A stretch of DNA of 63,615 bases, filler included, from Reclinomonas americana ATCC 50394 (GCA_048213135.1; 20 parts of 20 records of this genome joined end to end with filler, not necessarily neighbours in it); one strand, 5' to 3'. Positions 7,579 to 55,435 are shown, counted from the first letter of the whole stretch. The notes: a model not told the origin generated them from the sequence alone. Numbers and translations: made by a program.

Positions 7579-10500
7579 TTTTCATATTTGTTCGTCTCCA
7601 TCTTTCCACTCACAGTCTCATTCGGCAGTTCTTCTCATCCAGCTGCTCTCCTTTCTTTTTATCACTTGTATCTTTACTTGCATTTCGCTGCTTCTCGATA
7701 CACCACCTCCTCTCTCTCTCTATATATATCTCTCTCTCGCGTTATTCTGCTTGTTCTTCTTCACCATTCCACTCTTTCACGTCTTCGTCAGATCTTTCTC
7801 TTGGACTGCATCTCTTCTCCTCCTTTCACCCTTCACCTTTGCTGTCCCGCTCCCTCCACCCTCCCTTCTCTTCTCCAGCCCTCACCTTTCCCCCTCCCCC
7901 TTTCTCACCCTTCCCCCTTCTCCCTTGTTGCAGACCAACAACAACAACCCGTGGTATGGACTGGCGGCGACAATGCCGAGATTTTTGTGTGGAGCGTGCA
8001 CTCGAAGGAGCTGATGCACCAGCTGGAGCCACCGGCGCACGGCTCCATCCCCGCCGGCGGGGCGCTGACGCCGGGGAGCGGGCGGTCGGCGATTCGCGCG
8101 CTGGCTGCCTACCGCACCGACGGGACCGACTCGTCGGAGCAATACATTGTGTACAGTATGGATGAGCGCTCGGTGCTGGTGTCGTGGAATGCGAGGGTGC
8201 GTGTAAGGGGAGGAGGGGGAATTGTGCTTGGCTGCTGACTTGCGTTGTGGCGCAGATTTTGCAAGTGAACACGGTGGACATGCGTATGCATCGGCGCGAG
8301 TCGACAATGGCCACACTCGCCGCCACGCAGCATCACGTGTTTTTGGGAATGGACACGCTCACCTGTCGAACGACGGAGGTGAGCAAGCGTGCAGAGGGGG
8401 TAGGGAGGCGTGTACGTTTCTCATTTTCTTTGCGCAGTCTGGTATCCGGTCGCTGGCATTCGCAGTGACAGCCTCCAAGCGGTACATCAACACGCTGCAG
8501 GAGGAGAGTCGCGCGCTGAAGGACGACAACAAGCTGCTGCGCACGGAGCCGATTGTGAGTTGACGAGCCCTTGTCTTCGCTCCCTTTCTCTCCCCCCTTC
8601 ACTTTACATCCCCCCTTTCGTCTTCCCCCTTCGTCTTCCCCCCTTGTCCTCCCCCTCTTTCCCCCTCGTTCCCCCTCGTTCCCCCCTTGTCTTCCCCCCT
8701 TGTCTCCCCCCTTGTCTTCCCCCTCTGTCTTCCCCGTTGTCTTCCCCCTTGCACTTCCCCCTTGCACTTCCCCCATCTCTTCCCCCGTTGTCTTCCCCCT
8801 CTGTCTTCCCCTCTGTCTTCCCCCTCTGTCTTCCCCTCTGTCTTCCCCTCTGTCTTCCCCTCTTTCCCCCTCTTTCCNNNNNNNNNNNNNNNNNNNNNNN
8901 NNNNNNNNNNNNNNNNNNNNNTTAATTAATTAANNNNNNNNNNNNNNNNNNNNNNNNNNNNNNNNNNNNNNNNNNNNATTGAAGAGAGAGTATGGACATC
9001 TCCGACAGCTGACCAGGCTTGCGCACAGCTTCTCGCAACAAGTGATGGAGACGATGATTGAGCAACTGCCGAGTGCTGTCGAGGGGCATGGCGTCGATAT
9101 TGACATGGGGGGCGTAGATTACGTGGTGAGTGATCGTTCGTCTGGTGACAAGGGCCTTCGCTGGCTCATATTTCATCGCAGCATGGCGTTGATGACGACG
9201 TGCAAACGTCGCATGCTCGCGCTGACTCGACGGATTACCTGATGATGGTGTCGGAGCTGCAGCGGGATGACAAGTTTGTGGATTTTGTGATGGAGTTGGT
9301 AAGTGGCGTGGGGGAAAGGTGGAAGGATGGAAAGGGAGGGAGGGGCATGAAGAGAAGGAGAGTGAGTGAATCAGGAAGCCACGAGAGAAACACTCGTTCA
9401 TCTGTTCTTGCACTCTCCTTCTCTCTCTGCATCTTTCTCTTCGTTCCTCTTTTCGATCTTTCCCTTCGTTCCTCTTTTCGATTTTTTCCCTTCGTTCCTA
9501 TTTTCGATCTTTCCCTTCGTTCCTCACTGCGTTCCTCTCTTTGTTCCTCTCTCCGTTCCTCTCTCTTCAGTCTCTCTCTCCGTTCCTCTCTCCGTTCCTC
9601 TCTCCGTTCCTCTCTCCGTTCCTCTCTTCGTTCCTCTCTCCGTTCCTCTCTTTGTTCCTCACTGCGTTCCTCTCTTCGTTCCTCTATTCGTTCCTCTCTT
9701 CGTTCCTCTATTCGTTCCTCTCTTCGTTCCTCTCTTTGTTCCTCTCTTCGTTCCTCTCTTCGTTCCTCTCTTTGTTCCTCTCTTCGTTCCTCTCTTCGTT
9801 CCTCTCTTCGTTCCTCTCTTCGTTCCTCTCTTCGTTCCTCTCTTTGTTCCTCACTGCGTTCCTCTCTCCGTTCCTCACTGCGTTCCTCTCTCCGTTCCTC
9901 ACTGCGTTCCTCTCTCCGTTCCTCACTGCGTTCCTCTCTTTGTTCCTCACTGCGTTCCTCTCTCCGTTCCTCACTGCGTTCCTCTCTTCGTTCCTCACTG
10001 CGTTCCTCTCTTCGTTCCTCACTGCGTTCCTCTCTTCGTTCCTCACTGCGTTCCTCTCTTCGTTCCTCACTGCGTTCCTCTCTTCGTTCCTCTCTCTCTC
10101 TCTCGCGTTCTTTATCTCACTCTCTCTCGCTCTCTTGCTCTTTCTCGCTCTCGCTCTCTTGCTCTTTCTCGCTCTCGCTCTCTCTCGCTCTCGCTCTCTC
10201 TCGCTCTCGCTCTCTCTCGCTCTCGCTCTCTCTCGCTCTCGCTCTCTCTCCATATGTGTCTCCTTCTGTGATTCTCCTGTTCCCTCAAGCCACCGACCAT
10301 TTCGAGTGAGATCGAGGAAAGCAAAAGTACATGGGAGTTCAGGAATCGAGCTTGATGACATCAGCGTTTCTCTCACTCCTGTCCCATCGATCTTTCTCGT
10401 CTCTCGTCACTCACCGACGCTTGCCACAGAAACAATGCGTCCCTGAGGCCGAGCGTCCCGAATACCTCGATGCTTGCACACAGCTGCTTCGCTCGGACGA

Positions 10501-13311: not shown

Positions 13312-16300
13312 ATGGCGAGCGGGAGTGGAGTGCCGCGTGAGTTGCGTGTCTCTCTTTGTGTTGTTGTCAGATGCATCATCATCATTACTCACATTGTGTG
13401 TGATTCGTTCCTTGTCACTCTCCCCCCCTCCTCTCCTATCGTGCAGTCATCATCACGATGCTGGCGATGAGGAATGCATGATTCGCCTTGCCAAGGCCCT
13501 GTCTCGTCCATGCACCCGCGCTCTGCAGTCCAAACTCGAGCAAGTGCTGCCGGTGTTTCTCGATTCGTATCCCGGTGTGAATCATGTGGCCGAGTGGTGC
13601 AAGGCGCCGAGTGAGCGTGATGTGCGGTGAGTGTGTGTGGGGAAGGATGTGGAGCACACGATGGCAAGATGGAGATGGGAGATGTGAATGTGAGAGAGAA
13701 GAGAACGATTGCCACGAGCAAGCGGCAGCTGGTGACGCACTTGTCATCCCTTTCTCCCCATTCTCGCACTCTTCATTGTCTCACACACAACTCCGCATTC
13801 TATCCCTGATGAATGCCTCCACTTTCTTGTCACACACATCTCCCTCACTCACCAGCATCCTCTCATTCTTTGTGCCCTTCCCCACATGCAGCACTATGCC
13901 GGACGGAGTGGACATGTGTGTTCAGTTGAGCGAGACGGAGCAGCAGACGGTGCGCGAGTGGCGTCAGGGAGGCCAGCTGCACGACTGCAGCTCGTTTGAC
14001 GCGATGCTGTGCTGCTCGATCTTGCTGCTGGCGGGTCATCGAGAGCATCCGAGAGACGAGCCGGATCGTCTGATTCCAGCTGGCGATGTGGTACGTGTGT
14101 GTGAATGAGATGGAAGGAGGAGGAGTGTGATCTCTGTCTTTGTGTGATTGTGTCTCTCACTCCCTCATTGTTCACAGCGCAATTCAATTGAGCGACTGAG
14201 GGTGGTGTTTGAGCAGGCGAGTCCTGCCCGAGCTCGTGCACTCTTTGTGCCTCTGCTCGGTGCCGGAGGAGGAGAGGGCGAGTTACATCGGCTTGTGCGG
14301 CAACTGCAGATTGGCAGGGATGTGGAGGAGGAATTGGCGGTGCAGCTGAACGAGGCTCGTGATGGTGAGTGGAGGGAGAGAGATGGCTTGCGTTTGCGTG
14401 AATGATATGATCGAAGGTGGAAGCTGATGCTGTATTGGTTGTGTGAGAATATAGGTGCACTGAGTCAAGCAGACCTGGCATCGATGGCGGCCAATGTGGA
14501 GCAAGTTGAGTGGATCTGCGAGAATGCGGTGGCTTGCAGATATTGTTGTTTCTCACTTGCTTGTGGCTGGTCAGATGCGAATGGAGATTCAGGCAACGAT
14601 TCGTGCGGAGATGGAAAGTGTGCATCAGCGGCTTGACACAATGAGCATCTCTGCGTCATCTCCCTCAGTCGCTGGTGTGTTCCATGATGGACATGCAATG
14701 CATGTGCATATCTAAGCTCACACCCACTCCTCTCCGTACCACACAGCACCAGTCAGCAGTCTCCCATGCACGACACCGCTCGTTGCCCGCACCGTCAATC
14801 CAGTGACCACATTTCGCTTCCCAAGTCGGCGTGCACTGGCCGCCTCACTTGCCACGCGCGTTGTGGATGCTGTGGAAGGTTGGGTGCTCCTTCTCTTTCT
14901 CCCTTCCTTCCTTCTCCACATTCGTGTGTCTCATCATGTTGCCGGTGGCGGATGATTCCTGCGCAGCACATCAGCCAATCATGGTGGTGCTGACGGGCGA
15001 TGGTGGCACTGGCAAGTCGTTCCTGGCCGAGCTGCTGGTGACCGAGTTGCAGGCCACTCGTCGATGGAAGGGGTCGGCCGTGTCGGTGGAGATGCGCGGT
15101 CATGTGGGTGATGCGAGGGAGCATGTGACGGTGTGTGCTGAGTAACATGCATTTTGTCTTTCATGCTGCGTTATCTCTTCTGCTTTCATGCTGACTCTCT
15201 CTCTCTCTGTTGCCACATTCTGCAGGCGCAGAGTGCTCTGGGCGAGTGTCTGCGTGCCTTTGTGACGGCACAGATGCGAGTGGATGAAGTGGAAGGACGG
15301 AGGATGGCCAGCCAGGTGGATGCGCTGCTGGCGAGTGGCGAGGTGGAGCCAGCACGTCGTCTCCTGCGACAGTTGATGCATGCATCGAGTGGAGTGATCG
15401 TGCTGGACAATGTGGGATCGGCGGAGCAAGTGAGGAGGGTTGTTCAATGTGCTGATGAGGGTTCGTTTCAGGAGAGAGAATTCTCATTCTTGCTCGTATG
15501 TTGGATCCTGACATTGATGTGTAACATCTATGTGTGCCTGCTCAGGTGGAATGGTGGCACCGATTGTGGTGGTGACGAGTCGATATGGACAAGTGGCGGA
15601 TGAGATTCGTGACTTGATAATGCACGAAGCGGAGGTGGAGTGTGTGCGAGTGGAGAATGTGGAGAGCGAGGACATTGTGCAACTGGTCGAGGAGCGACTG
15701 GTTCACAAGGCATCGGAAGATGTGCGACGACGGATTGTGGAGGCACTGGAGAGTGGACAGCAGGAGAAGAGTGCACTGCGAGTGAGTGCTTGTGTTGGGT
15801 GAGTGCTTTGAGTGAGTATGAGTTGCGGATGAGAAGACTCACTCTCTTTTCTCCCTCTCTTCTTGATCATACAGCTGGTTGCTGTCACAGCCAGCAGTTG
15901 AGCTGGCGGGAGCGCGACTGGAAGAGGTGCTAAGTGGCATTGGTGGCGATGCACTGTCACAGCTGCTGGAACGCAATGTGATGTCACAGACAGCAGCAGC
16001 ACGTCGTCTGTTGGTGCTGATCACGGCGTGCAAGGAACTTGGCTTGCCAGTGACAGTGGCACTTGCGCGAGTGGCTCTGGGTGTGTTGCGAGTGATTCCT
16101 GATATGACCACCTCGGGGAGTGTGGATGAAGATGAAGAGGCGGCAAGTCGGCTGGTGGAGTTGGGTCAGTGTGTGCGCCGATTACGACTGCATGGGCTGG
16201 CATGGGAAAGGCGACGGCGTGCACCCGAGGTGGTGGGTGAGCGACTGCAGTTCGACGAGATGAGTCAGGAGGAGGAGCGACGTGTGAATGCAAGGCGTGA

Positions 16301-17708
16301 TGAGTTGGTGGGTGGTGGTGCAAATGGAGTGGAGGATGTGCTGGAGGGTCTGTGTTTGTCGAATCTGGTGACGGTGGGTGTCAGTGGCAGCGTGGACAGT
16401 GTGGCTCGTGTGCTGTGTGGTAAGCAACTGAGAGAGAGTGATGTGGCGATGGAGTATCGAGTGCACGACGAGATTGCTGGGTGGATTGTGAGACGGTGTG
16501 AAGATGCAGTGTCACGGGCGCAGCGACTGATTGTGCGACTGGTGTATTGTGTGCTGAATGGCATCGACTTGCAGAATGACAGTGACGGTGTGTTGTTGGT
16601 GTCGCGTGACGTGCTCGGTGTTCTGCACACAGTGTGGCGACGGTTGGGTGAGGATGACGGCATGTGGGCGAGTGATGTGGTTGGTATGAATGGGCTGCTA
16701 GTGCAGTTTGAAGCAGTCGAGTGGATTGGTGAGCAGTGTGTTTATCAAAAACTGCCGACAGTTGGATTCGATACGGCTGCTGCCTCGTCGCTTGTGCGAC
16801 GTGTGACGGAGTGTAGAGATCGTGGAGGTAGTGATGTTGAATTGAGTCCTGTGCGACGACGGTTTGCGATTGCGGTGGCAAAGTGTCAAGCTTGGTTGCT
16901 TGACTTTCTTTGTTGTCAGTGGGATGAACGTGAAGCTGCGTGGCAACAGGCGTGGCGTTTGTGCGAGGAGTGGGAGAGGGATGACAGTGGCGAGATGACT
17001 GTGCTTGATACGGTGGACGCACTGCGATGCTTGATGTGGTTTGCTTATCATTCAGGCAACTTGCCACTGCTGGTGCAGTGTCATGTGCGGCAGTGTGCGA
17101 CACTGGGTGAGCATCATCCGGACTCTCTGACGACTCTGCATTATCAAGCATTTCATCACTTCTATCGACCGGATTATGCTGATGCGGAGGCGCTCTGGCG
17201 ACGGTGCTGGGAGATGCGACGACTTGGTCTTGGATCTGAGCATCCTGACACATTGGCCTCCATGGGCGGTGTTGCTGCATGTATCCTTGATGGTAGTCGT
17301 CTTGAGGAGAGAATTCAACTTGTACGAGAATGCTTGCAGCTGAAGCGAGCATCGCTGGGAGATCGACATCCGAGCACTCTCACGTCGATGAATAATCTTG
17401 CTTATTCTCTCGCGCAACAAAAAACGTCAGAATCACTGGCAGAAGCTGTTGATTTGTTCCGTCAGTGTTTGGCGGGACGACGTGAGGTACTGGGTGACAG
17501 GCACGAAAGCACATTGTTGACAATGTACAACTACGGTTACCTGCTCATGGAGCAACGACGATGGGACGAGGCTGAGGCACTGCTGGTGGAGTGTGTGGAT
17601 GGCATGCGAGCGGTGCTTGGTGAAGATTATCCGAAGACAGTGCAGGCTATTAAGTGGTTGGAGGAGTGTCGACGACGTGCAAAAAAGGGAAAATGTGTGT
17701 TGCTGTGA
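13312..17708 (+). CDS. NLR-like STAND protein, copy A: N-terminal domain, NB-ARC-type P-loop NTPase, TPR repeats, C-terminal CaaX
   Basis: Walker A VVLTGDGGTGKS (~14984-15020), Walker B VIVLDNV..AEQVR (~15394-15435), sensor-1-like VVVTSR (~15566). Kinesin-light-chain-type TPR units LGEHHPDSLTTL, LGSEHPDTLASM, LGDRHPSTLTSMNNLA, LGDRHESTLLTMYNYG and LGEDYPKT lie in a ~1.8-kb terminal exon ending RRRAKKGKCVLL*. ATG 13312 and the exon structure are shared with copy B. Confidence 0.82.
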
Positions 17709-18195
17709 ACATTGTGAATGAACCTGCTCCCCCTCCCCTTGTTCCCATTGCCAAGAAGCATCCGAGTCGACTTCACCGGAATCCCGGAACTGGCATTCCG
17801 CGTCCTGCAGAGATTATCGCAACAATCCGTCGCTGCACGACCGCGCGCATACTCTCTCTCCNNNNNNNNNNNNNNNNNNNNNNNNNNNNNNNNNNNNNNN
17901 NNNNNTTAATTAATTAANNNNNNNNNNNNNNNNNNNNNNNNNNNNNNNNNNNNNNNNNNNNGCGTTTTCAATCTCAGTTTGCCTTATTTAGTTGTCAGTT
18001 GTCTCTGTTCTTCCCTCTCGCTCTCTTTCTCTTGCTCTCGATTGTTTCTCTCCACTCTCTCCGTTCTCGTCTCTGTTTCTTTCTCTTTCCCATATTCTCT
18101 CTCGCTTTCTTTCTCTTTTTTGCTCTCTCTCCTCTCATCTGTCACTCTCTCTCATCCCTCTCCATTTACCTCACTCACCCTCCTTCGCATCCCAG

Positions 18196-21100
18196 GCGCC
18201 GACTTTGAGCCCTTCATCAGCGAGACGAACGCCGCCCTCAACGCCATCGAGAGCGCCTCGAAGCCGACCGTCGCCGCTCTGGAGACCATGGCCTTCGGTT
18301 CGTGTGCTCGCTCCCTCCGTCATTTCCCCTGCACGATTCTCACCTTTCCCTCCAACAGGTGGTGGCCTCGAGCTCGCCATGTCGTGCCACGCCCGCATCG
18401 CCACTCCGAACACGAACGTCGGCTTGCCGGAGCTGCAGCTGGGCCTGATCCCCGGTTCGTCCCCCTTATGTCCTCTCCCCACTACCGTACTTTTCTGTCC
18501 CTCCTCCGTCTCCTTATTCTCACCTCCCCTCCTCCTCTTCTCACCTCCCCTTCTCCTCATTCCTCCTCCTCCCCCCACTGCCGTACTTCTTCGTCCCTCA
18601 TTCCCCAACCTCACACCCCCTTCTCATTATTTTCACCTCCCCTACTCCTTTTCTCACCTCCTGTTCTCCTTTTTCTCACCTCCCCTTCTCCTTTCGTCAC
18701 CTCCCTTTCTCCTTTTTTTCACCTCCTCTTCTCCTAATTCTCACATCCCCTCCTCCTTATTCTCACCTCCCCTTCTCCTTCTCCTCCCCTCACCTCCCTT
18801 TCTCCTTTTACTCCCCTTCTCTCCTTCCCCTCACTCCCCCCCTTTCCCTTTATAGGCTTCGGCGGCACACAACGCCTCCCCCGCCTGGTGGGCGTGCAAA
18901 AGGCGCTGGAGATGATGCTGTTGTCGCAGCACGTCAAGGCCGCCGACGCGCACAAGATTGGCCTGGTCGACGCCATCACCCGCGACTCGGCCTCCCTGGT
19001 CGCCGACGCCGCCAAGCTGGCGCTCGACATTGCCGCCGGCCGTGTGGCCCGCCGCGAGTCGCTGACGTACACGCGCAAGCTGGAGGCCGCCGGAGTGGTG
19101 TCCATGATTTGCACGGAGGGTGAGTGGGGGGAAAGGGGAAGGGAGGGAGGAAGGGGATGGAAGGGAGAAGGGGATGCTGACGTGAGCTTGCAGCGCGTCG
19201 TCGTGCGGAGAAGGAGAACCCGAATGTGACGCACACGGTCGAGTGCATCAATGTGACGGAGGCGGGAGCCACGCGCGGATCCAAGGCTGGATTGCAAGCT
19301 GTTGCGTAAAAGTACAAGGGATTGTGTTATCCTCTCTCGCTTCCCCTCCGTGTCTCTGTGCCTCCCTCCATGATACTGCATCTCCCTCAGTATCTCTGCT
19401 CCTTTTTCCGTGTCCCTGCGCCTCCCTCCGTGTCGCTGCGCCTCCCTCCGTGTCGCTGCGCCGCCCTCCGTGTCGCTGCGCCTCCCCCCGTGTCGCTGCG
19501 CCTCCCTCTGTGTCCCCGCGCCTCCCTCTGTGTCCCTGCGCCTCCCTCTGTGTCCCTGCGCCTCCCTCCGTGTCCCTGCGCCTCCCTCCGTGTCGCTGCG
19601 CCTCCCCTGTTGTCGCTGCGCCTCCCTAGTTTTCGCTGCGCCTCCCTCCGTGTCGCTGCGCCTCTTTCCGTGTCGCTGCGCCTCTTTCCGTGTCGCTGCG
19701 CCTCTTTCCGTGTCGCTGCGCCTCTTTCCGTGTCGCTGCGCCTCTTTCCGTGTCGCTGCGCCTCTTTCCGTGTCGCTGCGCCTCCCTCTCGTGTCGCTGC
19801 GCCTCTTTCCGTGTCGCTGCGCCTCCCTCTCGTGTCGCTGCGCCTCCCTCTCGTGTCGCTGCGCCTCCCTCTCGTGTCGCTGCGCCTCCCTCTCGTGTCG
19901 CTGCGCCTCCCTCTCGTGTCGCTGCGCCTCCCTCTNNNNNNNNNNNNNNNNNNNNNNNNNNNNNNNNNNNNNNNNNNNNTTAATTAATTAANNNNNNNNN
20001 NNNNNNNNNNNNNNNNNNNNNNNNNNNNNNNNNNNCTCTCCTCCTCTCTCTCTCTCTCTCTCTCCTCTCTCTCTCCTCTCTCTCCTCTCTCTCTCTCTCC
20101 TCCTCTCTCTCTCTCCTCCTCTCTCTCTCCTTCCCTCCTCTCTCTCTCTCACGATTCGTGCGAGCTTATCAACTAATATTCTTCGTTCGTGCAGGCCGTG
20201 CTCGAGAAGCCGACGCTGAAGCAGGACGTGTTTGTGGAGCTGGAGCGCCTGTGCTCGCCGACGTGCGTGCTGGCCTCCAACACCAGCACCATCAGTCTGG
20301 ATGTGATTGCCGCCAAGACGCGCTCGGCGGATCGCATTGTGGGTCTCCACTTCTTCAGGTGAGAGGGGAAAGGGGTGTATAGGGGAGGAATAGGGGAAGG
20401 GGTGTAAAGGGGAAGGGAATAGGAAAGGGAAAGGGAAGAGGGACAGCGATAAGAGGAAGAATGACTGTGAGGGAAGCATTGGCAGCGAGAGCGAGAGGAT
20501 GGATAGCAAGAAAACAGATAGACTGCGATCAGAAGGATGGGCAGGGAAGAGAAAGGTTGGGCTGCGAAGAGAGAGGTGGATCGCGAGGAAAGGGGCTATC
20601 TGCACAGCAGAGAATTGTCAGCGAAGAGAAAATGCTCTGCGAAGAGAGAGGGATAGAATTCGAGGGTAGCAGGTTGGACAAAAGATGTCTTCTGCTCCTG
20701 CACTCACCCTTTTCCCTTTCCCCCGTTTCCCTTTCCCCTCTTCGCGCAGCCCCGCCCACGTCATGCCCCTGCTGGAGATTGTCCGCTCGGACCACACCTC
20801 CGCGCAGGTGCTGGTCGACTCGATCGCCTTTGCCAAGACCATTGGCAAGACGCCGGTGGTGGTCGGCAACTGCGCCGGTTTTGCCGTCAACCGCATCTTC
20901 TTCCCGTACTCGAGGTTTGTCGAAAGGGGGAAGGGAGGGGAAGGGAAGGGGAAGAGTGGGACAAGGAGAGACAGAGAGCGAGAGAATGAGTGTGGAGTGA
21001 GTGAGAGTGTAAGCGGGTGAGGGTTGTTGAGGGAGGGGATGAGTGAGGAAGAAAGAGTGACACAGAGGAAAAGAGAAGGAAAGGAAGGGAGAACGAGAGA

Positions 21101-24100
21101 AAGAAGGACAATGTGTGAGAGTGCGAGAATGAGGGGGTATTATAAATTGAGAGCAAGACGCTAAGAGTGAGAGAGCGAGTGTGCGAGAGAGTGAGAGAGA
21201 GACAGAGCGAGCGACAGTTTGAGAGAAAGAGTGCAAGCATGAGTGTAATTGAGAGAGTGAGAGATAGGATTAGCTTGAAAGAGAGAGTTGGAGAGAGAGT
21301 CTGTGTTTGCGTGTGTGCGAGTTGTTAGCGAAGTGAGCGTGTGAGAGCTTTGCAGTAAGTGCTTGCTGGAATGTGGATTCTGTGTGTGTTTGCTATTGCG
21401 TGTTGGAAGAGTGTATGAGTGTGTGAGTGAGTGTGATTGAGTGCGAAACAGAGGTCAATGCACATTCTACGAATGACTCCTCTCTTGCTCACTTTGTGTC
21501 GCAGCTCGTGCGCCTTCCTCACCGACCGCGGAGTGGAGCCGTACCGCATTGATGCCATTGTGAATGCTTTCGGCATGCCGCAGGGAGTTGCGTTGTTCAT
21601 GGAGACTTTAGTTGTGAGCAGTGCTGACTACCTTGCGCTGCAGCCGTACCGCATGGGCGACATGGCTGGCATTGACATTTTGTACCACGCTCATTGCTTG
21701 ATGGTGAGATGTGAAGCAAATCAAGCATGGTTGATGGTTGCACTCACATTTGTGCACAGGCTGAGGCGTACGGTGCTCGTGCTTACCCGATCCACGCGTC
21801 GGCGCTGATGGTCAAGGACAATCGTCTCGGTTTGTGGTACTCAATGCCAGATGTCTCTGTCCCGTGTCCTCACTCTTCTCTGTTCCCAGGCCAAAAGTCG
21901 GGCGCCGGCTATTACAAGCACGAGAAGGGTGTGCGCGAGGCACCGGCGGATGCGCAGGGCGTGGCGCGCTTCTTGCAGGAGGCTCGTCGTCTGTCGGGCA
22001 ACCCGGAGGTTCGTCTCAAGAGAAGGGGTTGCAATGGCTATTTCCTTACACTCTCCTGTTCGCAGCCGGTGAACTTCACCGACCAGGACATTCTGGAGAT
22101 GGTGTGGTTCAGCGTCATCAACGAGGCCTGCCGTGTGCTGGATGAAGGCATTTGCGTGCGCTCGAGTGACATTGATGTGGCGTCGGTGAGGAGAATAAGG
22201 GAAAGGGAGATCAAGGAAAGAGAGATTGAGTGAAAGGAAAGCAAGGAGGGAATAGGAATGAGAGTGGAAGCAGAGGGCACATGCGGAGTCAGAGAAGACG
22301 CAAAAGATTGGGGAGGGCGAGACGAAGAGGAGAATCAGATGTGAAGTGTTTGTAGGAACGCAATTTGCCCGATGTATTTTGTGTCGCATCACGCACTCAC
22401 GCTCTCTGTTCACTGCAGGTCATGGGCATGGGCTTCCCGTCGTGGCGGTACGTTTGATTATCGATTTGGGTTGTATGTCGTCGTTGTGTGTCTGCCTCTC
22501 CTTGCTCTGTTTGATGGACTGTCGTCTTTGTTTCGATTGTAGTCCTTTTTCCTCTGCTCATACTTGTGCAGCTTGCGTTATCACCGCTCTTGTTTCACGT
22601 CGCCTTGCGCTCAATCCCTGAATTTGTCCTTGTACTTCTTCGCATTGCCCTCTTCCCTTGAATATCCACTTGCTTGTGCTTCTTGCAAACGAAGTTCAAT
22701 ATGCACGGTGACCTTGAACCCTCTCATTTCGGCTCACTCCTTTTTGTTGCCTCGTCTTCTCTGTCCCTCTATTGCCCTTTCCTTCTCGTTATCCCCCTTC
22801 TCCTTCTCTCCCTTTCTTCTCCTTCCCTTCTCCTCACTCCCCCTTTCCCGTGTTGCAGCGGCGGCCTCATCAAGTACGCCGACTCCATCGGCGCCCGCTA
22901 CATCCGCCAGAAGCTCGACGAGTGGCACAACCGCTTCGGCGTCGAGCTCTTCCGCCCGTCGCCCTACCTGGCGCAGCACGCCGACAAGAACGTGCCGCTC
23001 AGCGTCATCCACCCGGGCGACGACGACTCCGACGTTGTGATTGTGGCCTCGTGCCGCACGGCCGTGTGCCGTGCCTTCCGCGGTGGATTCAAGGTTTTGT
23101 GGGGGGCGAAGGGGTTAAGGGGGTTTGGGGAAGGTTCGCTGACGATGAATTGGCAGGACACCGCGCCGGACGTCATGCTCCGTCACGTGTTCGAGGACCT
23201 GCTGCGTCGTGCGCCGCAGGTGAAGCCGGCTGACATTGGTGATATTACTGTTGGTTGTGTGCTGCCGCCGCAGGTGAGAATTATTTCACAAAGGCCATCT
23301 CTCTCTTTCTTGCTCCCCCTTTCGCTCTCCCCCACTCGCTCTCCCCCACTCGCTNNNNNNNNNNNNNNNNNNNNNNNNNNNNNNNNNNNNNNNNNNNNTT
23401 AATTAATTAANNNNNNNNNNNNNNNNNNNNNNNNNNNNNNNNNNNNNNNNNNNNCCCCTCTCCTTCCTTCTCTCGCTCCCCCCTCTCCTTCCTTCTCTCC
23501 TTCCCCCTCTCCTTCCCCCTCTCGCTCCTCCTCTCCCTTGTCGCTTCCCCCTCACCTCTCCCTTTTCCCCCCTTTTCCCTTCTCACACTTTCCCCTTCCC
23601 CCTCTGCAGGGTGGCGTGATCGACGTCCGTGTGGCCGGCCTCATGGCGGGCATCCCGGAGACCGTGCCCGTGCGCACCATCAACCGCTTCTGCTCGTCGG
23701 GCCTGCAGGCCATTGCCGATGTGGCATCGGCGATTCAGGCGGGGTACTACGATATTGGCATTGCGGCGGGAATGGAGAGCATGTCCAGGGTGAGTGAAGG
23801 GAAAGGGGAAGGGAGAAAGAGGAGAATTGTAGAAGGGAAGGGGAAGAAAAGGAGAAGTAGAGTGAGGGAAAAGAGATGGAGAGAGAGAAGGAGGAGAGAA
23901 GGAGAAGCAGAGTGAGCGATAGAGTTGGAGAGAGAAGTGGCGGGTGATACGATAATGCTCTCAATGCGAGAAGGAAAATTTCGATCAAGACCGAGCAAGG
24001 AAGGAAGAGTGAGTAAGAGGAAGGAAGATCGGGAGGGGAAGGGGGAGAGAGAAAGAGCGCGCTGTGGCAAATTTAGGGAGAGTGGCAAAGAAAGTGACTG

Positions 24101-27100
24101 AGAGAGAGAGGCAGAGAATGTTAGACCGTGGAGAGTTGGGCTTCGGAAACGAATGCGAAACGAAAGAGATCGAGAATGAGTTGAGTGACGGAAGTTGTAA
24201 GATGAGAGTGTGAGGGACACAATTCCTTGTAACTTGCTTGGTGCTCATCCCTTCCCCCTTGCCCTTCCCCTTTTTACAGGACCCGATGGAGTTCAAGCTC
24301 AAGCCGAACCCGCAGGCCACTGGCGCCGCGGCGGACAGCTACCTGTTGCGTCCCGCTGTCGTCTGCTCTGATTCCGTGAAATCGCTCACCATCACTGCAG
24401 CGCCATGGGCATCACTGCCGAGAACGTTGCCGAGCGCTTCAACATGCCTCGCTCGCGTCTCGATGAGGCTGCTGCGGAGAGCCACCGCAAGGCGGCGGCG
24501 GCGCAGGCTGCTGGCAAGTTTGTCGGTGAGTTGATTGGCAAAGTATTCCTGTCTTCCCCTCCCCCTCACTTCTCTGTCTTCACAGACGAGATCACGCCGG
24601 TGAGCACGGTGCTCATCAACGACCAGACCAAGGAGACGAAGCAGGTGGTCATCAAGGCCGACGATGGCCTGCGTGGTGACACCACGGCGGAGGTGCTGGG
24701 CAAGCTGCGCCCGGTGTTCAAGAAGACTGGCGTGGTGACGGCCGGCAACTCGTCGCAGGTGTGTCTTGACAAGAGAAGTGATTGTCCGTACTCCGTCACT
24801 TATCACGCTCGCAGATGTCGGACGGCGCCTCTGCGCTGCTGCTGATGTCGCGGGCCACGGCTCGCCGACTGGGATGCCAGGTGCAGGCCACGCTGCGCTC
24901 GTTTGCGGTGGTTGGTGTGCCCCCGGCAATCATGGTGCGAAAGGGGAAGGGGGAAGAGAGGGGAAGGGGGTGAAGGGGAAGGATGAGGGTGGAGGAAGGG
25001 GAAGAGAGGGGAAGGGGAAGGATGAGGGTGGAGGAAGGGGAAGAGAGGGGAAGGGGAAGGGAGAAGGGAGAAGGAGAAGGGAGAGATAGAGAGAAGGTGG
25101 AGAGATGAGGGTGGGGAGATGAGGGTGGAGAGATTGGAAAAGAGACAAGGAGTGAGTGTTTCCTCTTTGTTTCACTTGAATGTTTGCAATCTGTGGAGTG
25201 AGTAGCCGACAATGCAGTATTGTCTCGTTGATCTTTCGTTCTTTCCTTGTTTGAGAGCAAAGTTGCGCTTGTGCGAGTGAGAGAGATAAATCTTACTTGG
25301 TGCCTATTATTCGTGTTTGCGACGCTGTGTTCCTTGTTGCGTTTGAGTGTTTGCCGTTCTTATATGATCTATTCCTTTTCTCTACCGCTGCTCTGCATTT
25401 TGCATTCTCTGTTCTTCGCTTGAGTGTGTGTTTCTGTGAAGTGAGAGTCGACAGTTCACGGTATTTGTCTATTCCTTTTGCTTGTTTTAGAGCTAAGTTG
25501 TACTTGTGTGAGTGAGAGAACATCGTGTTATCTGTTGCTGCTTGTCATTCGTGCTTGTTTTCGAGTGTTTGCTTTTCCAATGTGATCATTTTCTTTCTCG
25601 CTCCACTGCATTGGCTTCTATGTTCAATCTCAGTGTGCATGCTTTCTTGGCTCCGTTGCTGGTGATTCTCTGTGAACGCCAAGTTGACACTGTTGTGCGT
25701 GTGTGTTTTCTCCTTTCATGTTGTAAGCCCTCTTGGCAATCTGTCAATCCCTCTCGCTGTCTGATTTTTGTTCTCGTTGCCGATATGTCTCTGATTCTGG
25801 CTTCCGCGAGTCCTTTGACTCGTTGAGATTCCTGATGTGTCGCTTTCTCTCCTTCAGTCGTCCCTCTCTCCATTCCCCCTCTCCGTTCCTCACTGCGTTC
25901 CTATCTTTGTTCCTCTCTTCATTCCTCACTGCGTTCCTCTCTCCGTTCCTCGCTGCGTTCCTCTCTTTGTTCCTCACTGCGTTCCTCTCTCCGTTCCTCA
26001 CTGCGTTCCTCTCTCTCCGTTCCTCACTGCGTTCCTCTCTCTCCGTTCCTCTCTCCGTTCCTCATTGCTTCCTCACTTTGTTCCTCTCTTCGTTCCTCAC
26101 TGCGTTCCTCTCTTCGTTCCTCTCTTCGTTCCTCACTGCGTTCCTCTCTTCGTTCCTCACGGCGTTCCTCTCTTCGTTCCTCACTGNNNNNNNNNNNNNN
26201 NNNNNNNNNNNNNNNNNNNNNNNNNNNNNNTTAATTAATTAANNNNNNNNNNNNNNNNNNNNNNNNNNNNNNNNNNNNNNNNNNNNTTCGTTCCTCTCTT
26301 CGTTCCTCTCTTCGTTCCTCACGGCGTTCCTCTCTTCGTTCCTCACTGCGTTCCTCTCTTCGTTCCACTCTTCGTTCCTCTCTTCATTCCTCTCTCCGTT
26401 CCCCTCTCCGTTCCCCTCTTTGTTCCCCTCTCCGTTTCGCTTTCTCCGTTCCCCAATCTGTTCCCCTCGAAATTCCCGTCTCCATTCCTCTCTCCCTCCC
26501 TCACTCCGTCCCTCTCCCTCTCCACCTTCTTCCTCTCTGTGATCCTCACTTTCCCTCCCTTCCCCCCAATAGGGCGTCGGCCCCGCCTACGCCATCCCCC
26601 GCGCCCTGGAGATGGCCGGCGTCTCGCAGGACCAGATCGATCTGTGGGAGGTCAACGAGGCGTTCGCCACGCAGTTCCTGTACTGCGGTGACAAGCTCGG
26701 ACTGCCGATGGACAAGGTCAACGTCAATGGTGGTGCGATGGCTCTCGGCCACCCGCTGGGGTGCACCGGTGCCAAGCTGACGACTCAGATCATTCACGAA
26801 GGTTTGTAGGGGAAGGGTGGAGAGGGAGGGACTGGGGAAAAGAGGGGAAGAAGGGAGGAAGGGGCGAAGAGGGGAGTGAGATTATGACAACGCTGAAAGC
26901 AAAAAAAAAAGAGCGGCAGAGAGTGAGAAGGAATGAGAGAATGCGAGTCGCGCTGTGAGAGTGGATGGATATGTTTGCAAGTCGGCAAGGAGGGCAAGTG
27001 AGAGAATGAGAGGGGGTGAGAGAGCAGCCGTTGTGCAGAGACATTAAGGCAATGCTTAAAGCAGAAGAGAGCGACGGAGAGTGAGGAGGAATGAGAGAAT

Positions 27101-27657
27101 GCTATATGTTCGCAAGTCTACAAGGAGGGGAAGTGAGAGTGAAATCAGAGCATGTGAGGGGATGAGAGAGCAACCGTTGTACTCTGAGACTATGACAACG
27201 CTGAATTCAGAAAAGAGCGACGTAGAGTGAGGAGGAGTCGAGATTGCGAGACATACCGTGAGAGTGGATGGATATGCTTTCAAGGGAAAATGAGAGTGAA
27301 CTCAGAGAATGAGAGAGGGGGTGAGAGAGCAGCCGTTGTGCAGTGAGACTATGACTACGCTGAAAGCAGAAGAGAGCGACGGAGAGTGGGGAGGAATGAG
27401 AGAATGCTGTGCAAGTCGGCAAGGAGGGGAATTGAGAGAATGAGAGGGGGTGAGGCCGTGTCTCCGTCTCGTGGCGTTTGCTCATCCCTTTCCCCATCTC
27501 ACAGCTCGTCGCCGCCATGCCAAGTACGGTGTGGTCTCCATGTGCATCGGCTCGGTGAGTGCTTCCATCCCTTGTCCTCTTCATTCACCCTTCCCCTCAC
27601 TTCCACCACCTGCAGGGCATGGGCGCCGCCGCCGTGTTCGAGTTCCCGCAGCATTAG
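18196..27657 (+). CDS. Fused beta-oxidation enzyme: enoyl-CoA hydratase, 3-hydroxyacyl-CoA dehydrogenase (AIM1/MFP2-type) and 3-ketoacyl-CoA thiolase; 5'-partial
   Basis: Hydratase: [39 protein letters not shown]. Dehydrogenase: [58 protein letters not shown]. Thiolase: [83 protein letters not shown]. The MFP/thiolase junction lies inside one exon (22859-23093). Confidence 0.92.
19400..19935. repeat. Intronic 20-21-bp minisatellite (GTGTCGCTGCGCCTCCCTCC)
   Basis: More than 20 tandem copies running into a gap. Confidence 0.95.
25880..26420. repeat. Intronic 12-bp minisatellite with the same unit as 9440-10090
   Basis: TTCCTCACTGCG / TTCCTCTCTTCG tandem array. Confidence 0.9.
26878..27450. 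repeat. Degenerate intronic tandem repeat, unit ~140-170 bp
   Basis: Recurring GAGACTATGACAACGCTGAAAGCAGAAGAGAGCGACGGAGAGTGAGGAGGAATGAGAGAATGC and GAGAGCAGCCGTTGTGC blocks at ~26880, ~27050, ~27190 and ~27345. Confidence 0.75.
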
Positions 27658-49548: not shown

Positions 49549-50143
49549 TCTCCTCAACTCGGCCACGAGCGCGTCACGCTCCCTCACCTGCCGCGTCAAG
49601 TCCTCCACCGTCGGCTCCGCCGCCGCCGCCTGTGCCCCCACCACCACCACCCGCTCCAGGGCCTCCACCATGGCCGCCAATCCCCGCTGCCGCGCCATCT
49701 CCACCGCCGTCTTGCCGTCGCGCCCGCGCATCGCCAGCAGGTCGGGAATGGCGGTGGCCAGCAGCACGGCCACCTCCTGCTGGTTCCAGAACACGGCATT
49801 GTGCAGCGCCGTCCACCCCTCCTCGTCAATCATGCGCGCCGCCTCGGGCGAGCAGCGACGCGGGTCGGCCAGCAGCCAGCGCACGGCCTCCACCTGTCCG
49901 TTGCCGGCGGCGCCCATTAGCGGTGTCCACCCGTTGTAGGTCACGTGCTGCGCCAGCTCCGTGCCGCACTCGGTGTGCCAGAGGAGCTCGAGGATGGGCA
50001 CGTGGCCGGAGGCGGCGGCGTAGTAAAAGGCCGAGCCGCCGCTGGCGTCCATCTCCTCGGGTTGGAGGAGGGTGCGGGCGGAGGAGGTGAGTTGGCGGAG
50101 GGTGGTGAGGTCGTTGAGTTGGGCGAGTTCCCAGGCGGGGGCT
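49549..50143 (-). CDS. Ankyrin-repeat exon (~4 repeats) followed by coiled coil; partial gene
   Basis: GGSAFYYAAASGHVPILELL, GWTPLMGAAGNGQVEAVRWLL, GWTALHNAVFWNQQEVAVLL, DGKTAVEMARQRG; polypyrimidine tract and TAG acceptor directly upstream. Confidence 0.9.
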
Positions 50144-51053
50144 CTACAGAGAGGCAAAGGGAATAAGGGGAAGGGTGGAGAGGGGGAAGGGTGGGGAAGG
50201 GGAAGGGAGATTAGGGAAAGGGGAGATGGGAAAGGGGAGAAGGGAAGGGGGAAAGGGGGAAGGTCTTTCTTTCTTGTCTTCTTTGAGATGTGAGTAAGTG
50301 TGTGTGAGAGAGAGACAGACAGACAGAGAAAGAGAAAGAGAGAAAGAGAGAAAGAGCGAGAGAGAGATAGAGAGAGAAAGAAAGAAAGGAATGTGAGTCG
50401 TGAGGAGGATGAAGGGAGAGGAATGGAGGTTCTTTCTTGTCTTCTTCTTTGAAATGAGAAGTGGAGTGAGTGAGTGAGTGAGAGCGAGAGAGAAAGGAAT
50501 TGGGGTGGAGAAAAGGATGGAGGAAGGGAAATTGAGTTTCTTTCTTGTCCTTCCTTCTGTGAAATGTGAACGGGAGTGAATGAGTGAGTGAGAGAGAAGG
50601 GGAATCGAGTTTCTTTCTTTCCTTCCTTCATTGGAGTGAGAGAGAGATAGAGAGTCAGAGGCTGTGAGAACGACTACAAGGAGGATGCCAAGAGCGGAAG
50701 CTTGAGGACGGGACTGGCGACAATAAGAAAGAGAGGGATGCGGCAATTCCGGTTGTCGCATTCTTGAATAAACGAAGAGTGGACAGCAGAGAGGGAGAGG
50801 CGATCTTTCTGTTTCTGGTTATTCGAGAGAAATAGAAAAGGAATGATAATGTGGGCAGAGGGAAGGCGAGAGGGAGCACGATAACCTTTCCAATGCCTTC
50901 CACGCACAGCAGTATGAAGACGTGAAGTGATTGAGCTCAAGAGTGTGTGAGAGAGAGGGAAAGAGAGAGAGAAAGAAAGCAAGAGGAATGAGGGCGGAGA
51001 CGAGGGTGCAGTGGTGTATCTTTCAGGCCATACTCTTCTGCAACGTTAGGAGA

Positions 51054-52729: not shown

Positions 52730-55435
52730 GGGAAGGAGAGAGAGAGTAGTAGAGAGAGAGAGGNNNNNNNNNNNNNNNNNNNNNNNNNNNNNNNNNNNNN
52801 NNNNNNNTTAATTAATTAANNNNNNNNNNNNNNNNNNNNNNNNNNNNNNNNNNNNNNNNNNNNAGAGAGAGAGAGAGAGAGAAGAAGGGTGGAGGGGGAA
52901 GGGGCGAGAGATGCGGTACATCTGCCCTCGCGTTCCATAGTCCCTTTGTTCTGCTTTCGTTGCACTGTCCCTTTGTTCTGCTTCCCTTTGTTCTGCTTCT
53001 CTCGTTCCGCTGTCCCTTTGTTCTGCTACTCTGGTTCTCCTGTTTGCTGCGATGCGCCGCATTCTTTCCCCCTCTTTTTCTTGCAGCTGCCCTCACTCTT
53101 GTCCTTTCTCTCGTTTCTCTTTCTCATTCTTCCGTCTCCTTATCAATTCCTTTCTCGAGACCGCTGCACTTCTGCTCTTCTCGCGTTCCCTTCCACCCAC
53201 TGCGTCTTTCCCTTCATTGTACCCGTGTGCCCTTCATCGCCTCTATCCGTCCTCCTCTGCCCTTCTTCCACTCTGTATATTCTTCCACCTTCTTTCTCAC
53301 TTCGGCTCACTTCTTTCTGCCGTCATTTTCTGACAAGTGACATTCTCCTCTCCTCCTTTCTCACTTCTGACTCCGTCACCCTCCCGTTTCTCCTTTTTCC
53401 TTCCCCGTTGTCAGTCGTGCCGTTCTCCGTTTCTCTCTGCTTCTTACTTCTGCCGTCCACTCTGCCCAACACCTCATATGTGCCCATTTCCTGCTCCCTC
53501 ACTTCTCGTCTCTTTCCTCACCTCTGTCGTTTCTCGATGCCGTTCTTTTCTCTTCCTTCCGATTCTTACGTCCGCTGTTTTGCTTCCTCCATTCTGCAGC
53601 TCTCCTCCACTGACGCTTTCTGGATTCTGTCCTTCTTCGTCACAGCTGCACTTTACTTTCCTCTCATGTCTGTTCTTCTCCTTCTCTTCTTCTCACAACT
53701 GTTATCACTTGTGCCTTTTTTCTTCCTCCTCCTTTCTCACACTTCTCTTTCCCTCCGTCTCCTCGCCTCTGCCGTTCTCTTTCTCCTCTTCTCTCACTGC
53801 TTCTCTTCTCTTTCCCTCCTTCCTTCTCCCACTTCCGCTTTCTCCTGCTACCCTTCTTTTTACATCTGTCTGTCGCCTCCCATTGTCACCTGTGCCGTTC
53901 TCGCTCATCCTCGAGTTCGCGTTTTCATTCCTTGTCCATGTCCTCCATTTTTTTCTCTTGCGTGCTGTCCTTCTCTCTCGTTTTCTCATTCCTCTGTACC
54001 TCTTATTTCTCACTTCTTCTTCCTCTTCTTTCCTCTTCTTCTTCTCCCTCTCATGGCACTTCTCCTCATTCTCGTGCGCGTCTCATCGCCCCCATCTCAT
54101 CTCGTGCCCTCACCCTTCTCTTGTCACTTCTCCTCTTCCCTCCCCTTCCGCCCTCCTCCCCTTTTCCTTCTCCCTTTCCCTTCTTTCCCCTCTCCCCCTC
54201 TGCAGGTCGACCTGGCCGTCCTGGACGACCTGCTGGCCCGCTTCCACCCTGAACTGCATCGCCACTTGACGCACCACAACGTGCAAATGCCGATTTTCTC
54301 CATGCCCTGGTTCATCACCCTCTTTTGCACGTCGCTGCCCGCCGAGACGACGGCGAGAATATGGGTTCGTCGTTGATTTCCTCTCGTTTTTAGAGGACAG
54401 TGCTCATTCGGCATCACAGGACTTGCTGTTCCTGCACGGCTCACGAATCATATTCAAGTTGCATCGCCACCTTCCGATTTACATCTCCCTTCCCCTCTTA
54501 CCTTCTCCTCTTCGCAGGTGCTCGCTCGCACTCCTCGCCCGCCACCAAGCCGACCTGCTGAAGCTGAGGAACCTCCAGGAACTCGGACCGGCCATCAAGA
54601 TCGCGTGCGTGCGAGTGCGCGATGCCGATGGCCTGGCGCGAGAGATTGTGCGCATGAACAATGTGGAGTGGAATCTCATCCAGCAGCTGCGCGAGCAGCA
54701 CTTGGAGGCGCTGCGGCAGAGTGCACAACGCATGTTGTCGATGCGGGAAGTGGTGGAGTTGGAGCGGAGTACTGGATGTTGCGATTTTGATGGAGTTGTC
54801 ATTCGTGGCGAAGGGACTCATTTTGTGACTGTGGGCAGTCACGGCGGCTGAACTGCGGCGATTGCGGGAGGAGTTTGTCGCGATGAGTGCCGATGGTGTG
54901 GGTATTCACGAGGGGCAGTTCAAGCAGGTATTAGGGTCGATGAATTCGAGGTTTGTAACAGGAGAAGGAGGTGGTGAATGGAAAGAGAGAGGGGGAGAGG
55001 AGAGAGAGAGAGAGGAGGGAGGGAGGAGGGAGGAGGGGAGAAAGTGAGAGTGAATCGCATTGCGAAGATAGAAGATGTTGATTTCACACACGCACACATA
55101 CTGCGCATGTGCAAGCTTGGGTAGGGAGACAGTAATAGAAACAGACCCGGCAGTCCAATCGACGATGCGTTTTATTGTCACCCTGTCAGCACACACGGAC
55201 AACCGCAGGCACAGAGAGAGTGAGAGAGAGAAGATGGTGATTTCACACACGTGCAAGCTTGGGAAGGGAGATAGCAACAGAAACTGACTCATACGTCCTA
55301 TCGAGGAGCTTGTTTGTTTCACCTGAAGGCACACGCACTGCCAAGAGGAAGAGTGTGCGTGTGAATGCTAACGTTTCTCTGTTGAGCTCGGCGCCTTTGT
55401 TGTCACTAGAGGCCATGTATCCTCGCTCAGGGGAG

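What the first reader, a model, noticed from the sequence alone, without database searches (positions are those of the whole stretch)
22859..23093. Single-chain trifunctional beta-oxidation enzyme: MFP fused to thiolase within one exon
Seen: one exon reads [48 protein letters not shown] (MFP C-terminus), then VIHPGDDDS, then [21 protein letters not shown] (thiolase N-terminus). There is no stop, intron or gap at the junction. Catalytic motifs of hydratase (two Glu), dehydrogenase (His/Glu) and thiolase (Cys, His, Cys) are intact. Established: these activities are normally on separate chains (FadB/FadA, HADHA/HADHB, peroxisomal AIM1/MFP2 plus KAT/ACAA1). Both halves resemble the plant-type peroxisomal enzymes. 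Inference: covalent substrate channelling and a usable rare-fusion phylogenetic marker. I cannot exclude that the architecture is already recorded in other protists.
Basis: partly seen in the sequence, partly recalled or inferred. Interest (0 to 1): 0.8.

Follow-up and report, generated by a model that had tools for sequence, protein, structure and literature searches.

The report
Known-type fused fatty-acid oxidation gene
The window really encodes one protein chain joining three fatty-acid breakdown enzymes, but the same fusion is already published and is common in sequence databases, so this is another member of a known kind.

Summary
Exon 22859-23093 reads from the C-terminus of a hydratase/dehydrogenase multifunctional protein (MFP), through a short linker, into the N-terminus of a 3-ketoacyl-CoA thiolase. 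It has no stop and no in-frame ATG, and it lies inside one contig.

A 22-exon GT-AG model at 18196-27657 aligns in one piece with full-length fused proteins: 61% identity over 711 residues to P0242 and 57% to Heterolobosea sp. BB2. All eight catalytic residues checked are present. Of 150 family-invariant columns, 129 are kept, 2 differ and 19 fall in assembly gaps.

The architecture is not new. Seventy of the 120 listed long relatives carry it, including red algae, Cyanophora, Andalucia, Balamuthia and Heterolobosea sp. BB2. Mori et al. 2016 described it for red algae. Pánek et al. 2025, as cited in PMC12328842, already used it as a rare-fusion marker for Pharyngomonada.

Three things are untested here: transcripts, because no sequencing run was listed; the N-terminus and the NAD-binding exons, which lie in assembly gaps; and subcellular targeting. 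Substrate channelling remains an inference.

Verdict: a real gene and a new member of a known kind. Interest is low.

The parts
18196..18297 (+). First recovered exon, in the ECH (hydratase) domain (..[20 protein letters not shown]). The exons for about 108 upstream residues are not in the window.
   Evidence: tblastn with P0242 residues 109-142; splice sites
18359..18454 (+). ECH exon carrying both hydratase Glu residues (GGGLELAM.., GLPELQLG).
   Evidence: Pfam ECH_1/ECH_2, below the curated cut-off on this piece alone
18856..19119 (+). ECH exon ([13 protein letters not shown]...).
   Evidence: Pfam ECH_1 E 1.5e-9
19194..19300 (+). Exon linking ECH to the dehydrogenase. It is followed by a 20-nt tandem repeat array and gap block 19936-20035, where the exons for P0242 residues ~298-425 (NAD-binding region) are missing.
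20195..20358 (+). 3HCDH_N exon.
   Evidence: Pfam 3HCDH_N E 1.3e-16
20750..20914 (+). 3HCDH_N exon with the catalytic His and Glu ([12 protein letters not shown]).
   Evidence: Pfam 3HCDH_N E 7e-10
21505..21586 (+). 3HCDH C-terminal domain exon.
   Evidence: Pfam 3HCDH E 3.9e-4, just under the cut-off
21644..21703 (+). 3HCDH C-domain exon.
21760..21829 (+). MFP exon.
21890..22008 (+). MFP exon.
22066..22185 (+). MFP exon (second 3HCDH_C-like repeat).
22419..22447 (+). 29-nt micro-exon encoding (V)MGMGFPSW(R). It restores the conserved MGMGFPxxRGG motif.
   Evidence: best-scoring two-intron path in the enumeration; alignment
22859..23093 (+). Junction exon: the last ~48 residues of MFP, a linker (VIHPGDDDS) and the first ~21 residues of thiolase.
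   Evidence: phmmer hit P0250 spans query residues 1-77
23157..23273 (+). Thiolase_N exon. The following intron holds gap block 23355-23454.
23610..23789 (+). Thiolase_N exon with the nucleophilic Cys (NRFCSSGLQ).
   Evidence: Pfam Thiolase_N E 6.9e-18
24280..24344 (+). Thiolase exon.
24401..24525 (+). Thiolase_N exon.
   Evidence: Pfam Thiolase_N E 8.8e-27 on ORF 24372-24842
24586..24758 (+). Thiolase_N exon.
24815..24934 (+). Thiolase exon. The following 1.6-kb intron holds gap block 26187-26286.
26573..26801 (+). Thiolase_C exon (NEAF, GHPLG).
   Evidence: Pfam Thiolase_C E 6.7e-31
27505..27554 (+). Thiolase_C exon with the second catalytic Cys (VVSMCIGS).
27616..27657 (+). Last exon, [13 protein letters not shown] followed by a TAG stop. 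There is no PTS1-like tripeptide.

Best explanation
This is a genuine nuclear gene of an intron-rich eukaryote, most likely a discobid protist. [quoted passage not shown] It belongs to an already known family of fused 'three-domain MFP' (MFP-ACAA1) proteins.

Shown here: the continuous reading frame, the domain order, the catalytic residues, and one-piece alignment with fused homologues.

Inferred: the protein carries out steps 2, 3 and 4 of beta-oxidation. It probably assembles through the obligate thiolase dimer into an (alpha-beta)2 particle equivalent to the alpha2-beta2 FadBA/TFE complexes. That would fix a 1:1 ratio of the activities, allow import with one targeting signal, and possibly favour hand-over of intermediates.

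The C-terminus (..FEFPQH) has no PTS1. Related discobid and amoebozoan fused proteins carry a PTS2-like nonapeptide at the N-terminus. A PTS2 on the missing N-terminal exons is therefore the likeliest targeting route, but this is untested.
For: - Frame: exon 22859-23093 has no stop and no in-frame ATG.
- Gene model: 22 exons. Every exon boundary inside the model is a GT donor or an AG acceptor, and the model includes a 29-nt micro-exon that restores a conserved motif.
- Domains: Pfam finds ECH_1, 3HCDH_N, 3HCDH, Thiolase_N and Thiolase_C in order on the + strand.
- Homology: the 714-residue spliced C-terminal part aligns as a single HSP to fused proteins. It is 60.9% identical to P0242 (query 1-711) and 56.8% to Heterolobosea sp. 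BB2.
- Conservation: 129 of 150 columns invariant in 36 fused proteins are kept, 2 differ and 19 are not covered. All 8 catalytic residues checked are present.
- Spread of the architecture: 70 of the 120 listed relatives longer than 854 aa have MFP plus thiolase domains. All 76 session proteins that hit both halves are in the order MFP then thiolase, with 12-83 residues between the two matches.
- Single mRNA in relatives: transcriptome-derived records (a BB2 TSA entry, Gracilaria Trinity contigs, MMETSP Porphyridium) hold complete fused ORFs.
- Structure: the AF2 model of P0242 has mean pLDDT 88.6 and pTM 0.71, with a confidence dip to 66 in the linker block 741-750 and coil over 735-752.
- Phylogeny: the window groups with P0242 (97/97) and falls in a bipartition with BB2, Andalucia and P0178 (97/95).
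- Literature: Mori 2016 and PMC12328842 citing Pánek 2025.
Against: - There is no transcript or protein evidence for this organism. No sequencing run was listed, and the junction exon found no identical or near-identical protein in the 5.8-billion-protein collection.
- The gene is incomplete in the assembly. The N-terminus and the NAD-binding exons are absent, so an inactivating defect there cannot be excluded.
- No targeting signal was found. The C-terminus is not a PTS1.
- Mori et al. could not localise the C. merolae fused protein to peroxisomes, so the compartment is open even for the family.
- Channelling and the (alpha-beta)2 assembly are inferences. The AF2 output gives no interdomain geometry that I could compare with FadBA.
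Confidence: 0.87

Rival explanations
1. The gene is translated as one precursor but is cut in the linker after import, as peroxisomal proteases do with SCPx or MFE-2 in animals. The working enzyme would then be an ordinary two-chain MFP plus thiolase complex, and the fusion would serve mainly co-import and stoichiometry.
For: The linker is the least conserved and least confident part. It varies in length and sequence among homologues, and the AF2 pLDDT dips to 66 there. That peroxisomal proteases process multidomain beta-oxidation enzymes is recalled knowledge, not from a call.
Against: No conserved cleavage motif, and no conserved Cys, is visible in the linker alignment of the window and 14 fused homologues.
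Confidence: 0.1
2. The locus is an assembly or scaffolding artefact, or a decaying pseudogene, and not a working fused gene.
For: The scaffold is fragmented: 17 gap blocks in 63.6 kb. Two stretches of the gene are missing. No reads could be laid on the locus, because no run was listed.
Against: - The junction lies within a single exon inside one contig.
- The gaps flank tandem repeats in introns.
- The exon order across four contigs matches the homologues exactly.
- No stop or frameshift occurs in the 903 recovered codons.
- 129 of the 131 covered invariant positions are kept.
Confidence: 0.03

Closest known systems
Red-algal three-domain MFP (C. merolae CMR380C and the Porphyridium purpureum homologue; Mori et al. 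2016, PMC4928187)
   Same: The same five Pfam domains in the same order in one chain. The window's product is 48-50% identical to red-algal members over ~710 residues in a single HSP. Catalytic residues are shared.
   Different: The named red-algal members listed end in PTS1-like tripeptides (SRL, AKL, ARL, CRM, GKL), and 49 of all 76 fused proteins match the strict PTS1 pattern. The window's protein ends in PQH. The window falls on the other side of a 97/95 bipartition from the red-algal clade.
MFP-ACAA1 fusion of Pharyngomonada (Pharyngomonas kirbyi, Heterolobosea sp. BB2; Pánek et al. 2025 as cited in PMC12328842)
   Same: BB2 (P0245) is the nearest named relative, at 56.8% identity, and lies in the same tree bipartition. 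The C-terminus likewise lacks a PTS1.
   Different: BB2 has an N-terminal PTS2-like RQTVLLGHV, whereas the window's N-terminus is missing. The window's organism is not identified. At 57-61% identity it is not the same species as BB2 or P0242.
Plant peroxisomal MFP2/AIM1 plus KAT2 (PDB 2wtb; 2c7y, 2wu9)
   Same: These are the best solved-structure matches for each half of the nearest full-length relative (E 1e-207 and 9e-152). The chemistry is the same.
   Different: In plants they are two separate genes and chains. MFP carries a C-terminal PTS1 and KAT2 an N-terminal PTS2 (recalled, not from a call). Here both internal signals are gone and a short linker joins the halves.
Bacterial FadBA and mitochondrial trifunctional enzyme (PDB 1wdk, 6dv2, 5zqz)
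   Same: The same three activities are held in one particle. Both halves are homologous (1wdk_A E 4.5e-112, 1wdk_C E 8.1e-85).
   Different: Alpha and beta are separate chains that associate non-covalently. No chain in the Protein Data Bank copy matched both halves among the best 60 of 140 matches shown.

Membership tests
Fused three-domain MFP / MFP-ACAA1 fusion | ECH, 3HCDH_N, 3HCDH_C, Thiolase_N and Thiolase_C all present, in this order, on one strand | tested here: met
   Pfam on stop-to-stop ORFs. Two pieces (ECH on 17992-18852 and 3HCDH on 21437-21805) fall just under the curated cut-off when scored alone.
Fused three-domain MFP / MFP-ACAA1 fusion | MFP C-terminus and thiolase N-terminus joined in one open reading frame, with no stop and no new start | tested here: met
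   Exon 22859-23093 has no in-frame stop or ATG.
Fused three-domain MFP / MFP-ACAA1 fusion | One-piece alignment with established fused members across the junction | tested here: met
   Single HSP over query 1-711 against P0242, BB2, Cyanophora, Chondrus, Balamuthia and others; junction alignment; phmmer hit P0250 spans query 1-77.
Fused three-domain MFP / MFP-ACAA1 fusion | Catalytic residues of all three activities | tested here: met
   E146, E166, H478, E490, C840, N1063, H1095 and C1125 (P0242 numbering) are all present.
Fused three-domain MFP / MFP-ACAA1 fusion | NAD-binding Rossmann motif (family-invariant G347, G348, G349, G352, G354) | not testable with these tools
   The exons for P0242 residues ~298-425 are absent from the window and fall at gap block 19936-20035.
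Fused three-domain MFP / MFP-ACAA1 fusion | A single mRNA spans both halves in this organism | not testable with these tools
   No sequencing run was listed. Relatives have transcriptome-derived fused ORFs.
Peroxisomal matrix protein | C-terminal PTS1 tripeptide | tested here: not met
   The protein ends in PQH followed by TAG. The pattern [SAC][RKH][LM] is met by 49 of 76 fused homologues. The pattern itself is recalled.
Peroxisomal matrix protein | N-terminal PTS2 nonapeptide | not testable with these tools
   The N-terminal ~108 residues are missing. Five of 76 homologues have a PTS2-like motif at the N-terminus.
Stand-alone peroxisomal thiolase (KAT2/ACAA1) | Own start codon and an N-terminal PTS2 presequence | tested here: not met
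   The thiolase begins inside an exon directly after the MFP residues. No in-frame ATG or PTS2-like motif occurs at the junction.
FadBA / mitochondrial TFE (two-chain complex) | Alpha and beta subunits encoded as separate polypeptides | tested here: not met
   One continuous frame.

The most novel reading that the evidence does not exclude
The fusion may be neither a red-algal feature nor an autapomorphy of Pharyngomonada.

The window's copy groups with the discobid copies. The thiolase-half phylogeny does not reject a single origin of all fused forms (AU p = 0.068).

If the fusion is one ancient event, present before Discoba and Archaeplastida diverged, then the familiar separate MFP and thiolase genes of plants, fungi, animals and most protists would be secondary fissions. 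The targeting signal would also have been swapped between a PTS2 in front of the hydratase and a PTS1 behind the thiolase.
Probability: 0.25. Interest if true: 0.4.

Novelty: new member of a known kind. Interest (0 to 1): 0.15.

Why it matters
On its own the finding matters little. It adds one more, incompletely assembled, example of a published and widely annotated enzyme fusion.

It has modest value in three ways:
- It is genomic, intron-level confirmation that the junction is coded inside a single exon in a lineage near the discobid fused forms.
- Together with the database survey, it shows that the fusion is spread over several eukaryotic supergroups. This weakens its use as a clean clade marker.
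- It points to an unstudied switch in peroxisomal targeting among fused forms: a C-terminal PTS1 in red algae against an N-terminal PTS2-like signal in BB2, Andalucia and Balamuthia.

No solved structure of a covalently fused MFP-thiolase chain was found in the Protein Data Bank copy. A member of this family would therefore be a reasonable target for anyone studying channelling in beta-oxidation complexes.

Tried and rejected
- Whole genome: none is held for this window, so separate MFP or thiolase paralogues could not be sought.
- Junction exon against the 5.8-billion-protein collection, 'longer' mode: 22 word-sharing candidates, none scored. The search is word-limited, so this is weak evidence. 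The fused relatives were reached instead through the Thiolase_C exon and then P0010.
- Sequencing runs: none was listed and no RNA holder was listed. Transcript support and raw-read checks could not be done, and read laying was not used.
- Earlier findings by place and by sequence: nothing.
- Missing exons: tblastn of the N-terminal and Rossmann segments of 7 fused proteins against the whole window, both strands, gave no credible hit outside the known exons. The best stray hits had E 0.085 or worse.
- Pánek et al. 2025: not held by DOI and not found by a library search. Its content is known to me only through PMC12328842.
- Other papers: passages from the peroxisome papers on Guillardia, alveolates, Nannochloropsis, diatoms and Euglenozoa did not mention a covalent MFP-thiolase fusion.
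- Organism identity: not resolved. Pfam on 13 other ORFs gave only TPR, AAA_16, RabGAP-TBC, ankyrin and DUF668 matches.
- Single origin of the fusion: unresolved. The FastTree and quick trees of the thiolase half need 2 changes of the fused/unfused label, starred branches force only 1, and AU p = 0.068.
- AF2 model of P0242: the output gives no coordinates, so the docking of thiolase on MFP could not be compared with FadBA. No fold search was run.

Full report
**Observation.** In the frame that starts at 22860 it reads [48 protein letters not shown], then VIHPGDDDS, then [21 protein letters not shown]. It is preceded by an acceptor ..ttgcAG and followed by a donor GTtttg. A script found no in-frame stop and no in-frame ATG in the exon. 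The thiolase part therefore has no start of its own, and the MFP part has no end.

**Nature of the window.** It is a scaffold, not a continuous assembly. It holds 34 runs of 44 N that pair into 17 blocks of N44 + TTAATTAATTAA + N44. The junction exon lies well inside one contig, 20036-23354. The gaps within the gene abut tandem repeats in introns: a 20-nt unit repeated 29 times at 19344-19934, a CT run at 20036-20150, and 12-nt units on both sides of 26187-26286.

**Anatomy.** Pfam on 13 stop-to-stop + strand ORFs gave the following, in order:
- ECH_1 (E 1.5e-9)
- 3HCDH_N (E 1.3e-16 and 7e-10)
- 3HCDH (E 3.9e-4, just under the cut-off)
- Thiolase_N (E 6.9e-18 and 8.8e-27)
- Thiolase_C (E 6.7e-31)

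Five ORFs had no family, among them the junction ORF, which holds only domain edges.

**Gene model.** I used the full-length fused protein P0242 as a guide. tblastn plus an enumeration of GT/GC donors and AG acceptors gave 22 exons from 18196 to 27657. Every exon boundary inside the model is a GT donor or an AG acceptor. Eleven introns are 56-74 nt long, and the longer ones are full of low-complexity repeats. A 29-nt micro-exon (22419-22447) was the best-scoring path between 22185 and 22859. It restores the conserved [11 protein letters not shown] motif. The protein ends ..[13 protein letters not shown] followed by TAG.

**Missing parts.** Two parts of the guide protein have no counterpart anywhere in the window: residues 1-108, and about 298-425, which include the NAD-binding glycines. 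A dedicated tblastn with those segments from seven fused proteins found nothing credible. They fall at gap blocks 17862-17961 and 19936-20035.

**Conservation.** The recovered 903 codons (189 + 714) contain no stop. Of the 150 columns invariant in an alignment of 36 fused proteins, the window keeps 129, differs at 2 (Q916 to L, R1103 to K) and does not cover 19. All eight catalytic residues checked are present.

**Related sequences.** The junction exon alone found nothing in the word-indexed collection. The Thiolase_C exon, however, brought up P0010. This is a 488-residue fragment that carries a 3HCDH C-domain in front of a thiolase and has the same junction. Its cluster holds the full-length P0242, 1139 aa.

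Searching with P0010 among proteins of 855-2440 residues gave 161 hits. Seventy of the 120 listed have MFP and thiolase domains together and are mostly 1100-1200 aa long. Named ones:
- Red algae: Porphyridium purpureum (NCBI name 'AIM1'), P. aerugineum, Chondrus crispus, Galdieria phlegrea, Hildenbrandia rubra, Gracilaria changii, Agarophyton chilense and Pyropia yezoensis
- Glaucophyte: Cyanophora paradoxa
- Jakobid: Andalucia godoyi
- Amoebozoan: Balamuthia mandrillaris
- Heterolobosea sp. BB2

Several of these are transcriptome ORFs, so in those organisms one mRNA spans the fusion. All 76 session proteins that match both halves of the window's product have the order MFP then thiolase, with 12-83 residues between the two matches.

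The exhaustive phmmer search of 1.84 billion representatives with the 78-residue exon gave 21 hits at E up to 0.001. The best, P0250, spans query residues 1-77.

The window's 714-residue part aligns as one HSP to P0242 (60.9%), BB2 (56.8%), and the P0124-P0126 group (51%). Identity to red algae, Cyanophora and Balamuthia is 47-50%.

In a careful tree (LG+C20+F+G4, 19 rows) the window pairs with P0242 (97/97). It lies in a bipartition with BB2, Andalucia and P0178 against the other 14 rows (97/95). The quick tree agrees. The organism itself was not identified.

**What is in print.**
- Mori et al. [quoted passage not shown] They say Porphyridium has the same and that this is likely a feature of red algae. 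They could not localise the protein to peroxisomes.
- PMC12328842 (passages read) states that a rare fusion of MFP and ACAA1 was identified as an autapomorphy of Pharyngomonada (P. kirbyi and Heterolobosea sp. BB2) by Pánek et al. 2025, and that Multisulcus lacks it. I could not obtain Pánek et al..
- An earlier follow-up in this scan reached the same verdict for the C. merolae gene.
- Library searches with fusion-related terms found no other paper that describes the fusion.

**How it most likely works.** Each half is closest to the plant peroxisomal enzymes. In P0242, residues 44-744 match Arabidopsis MFP2 (2wtb, E 1e-207) and residues 749-1137 match KAT2 (2c7y, E 9e-152). The FadB/FadA and mitochondrial TFE subunits are more distant, and no solved chain among those shown matches both halves.

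The AF2 model of P0242 is confident (mean pLDDT 88.6, pTM 0.71). It has an unstructured first 34 residues and a coil with a confidence dip at the linker.

From established knowledge of thiolases as obligate dimers (recalled), the likely particle is a dimer of fused chains, equivalent to alpha2-beta2. Fixed stoichiometry and single-signal import follow directly from the fusion. Channelling is plausible but not shown.

**Targeting differs within the family.** Of the 76 fused proteins:
- 49 end in a strict PTS1.
- 5 carry an N-terminal PTS2-like nonapeptide: BB2, Andalucia, Balamuthia, P0178 and P0189.
- None has both signals.
- 22 have neither by these recalled patterns, including P0242 and Cyanophora.

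The window's C-terminus is not a PTS1, and its N-terminus is missing.

**Origin of the fusion.** In thiolase-half trees with unfused eukaryotic and bacterial thiolases, the fused forms are not one clean clade. Well-supported branches do not force more than one origin, and constraining them together costs 5.3 log-likelihood units (AU p = 0.068). The question stays open. No unfused MFPs were available for the other half.

**Verdict.** The novelty is not. This is a new, partly assembled member of a known and published enzyme fusion.

Noticed in passing
whole window; e.g. 23355-23454: The window is a scaffold of 18 contigs joined by 17 identical blocks of 44 N + TTAATTAATTAA + 44 N. The 12-base insert puts a stop in all six frames. 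Within the gene, the gaps sit next to tandem repeats.
   Followed up: partly
14807-17705 (+) and 61294-63150 (+): Upstream of the MFP-thiolase gene lies a large gene with a weak AAA_16 P-loop match and strong TPR_10/TPR_12 repeats, a STAND-NTPase-like architecture. A paralogous TPR ORF sits at 61.3-63.15 kb.
   Followed up: partly
22419-22447: A 29-nt micro-exon encodes the conserved MGMGFPSW motif of the MFP C-terminal domain. It is flanked by introns of 233 and 411 nt and would be easy for gene callers to miss.
   Followed up: yes
19344-19934; 25859-26436; 27001-27408: The introns carry long tandem arrays: a 20-nt unit repeated 29 times, 12-nt units on both sides of a gap, and a 146-nt unit repeated 2.7 times. 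Pyrimidine-rich microsatellites are also frequent.
   Followed up: partly
homologues P0245, P0185, P0175, P0178, P0189 (N-termini): In the fused proteins of BB2, Andalucia, Balamuthia and two unnamed records, a thiolase-style PTS2-like nonapeptide (R-x-x-x-L-L/V-x-H-L/V) sits at the N-terminus of the whole protein, in front of the hydratase domain. Red-algal fused proteins instead end in a PTS1. No protein has both.
   Followed up: partly
52865-54373 (+); 49552-50673 (-); 9149-10306 (+): Other coding pieces in the window: a RabGAP-TBC domain, ankyrin repeats, and a weak DUF668 match.
   Followed up: no
homologues P0183, P0194, P0195, P0153: Other long thiolase-containing records exist: ankyrin + thiolase in Cavenderia, DnaJ/HMA + thiolase in Thraustotheca, kinase + thiolase in Cannabis, and many fungal thiolases of 900-1000 aa. 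Some may be merged gene models.
   Followed up: no
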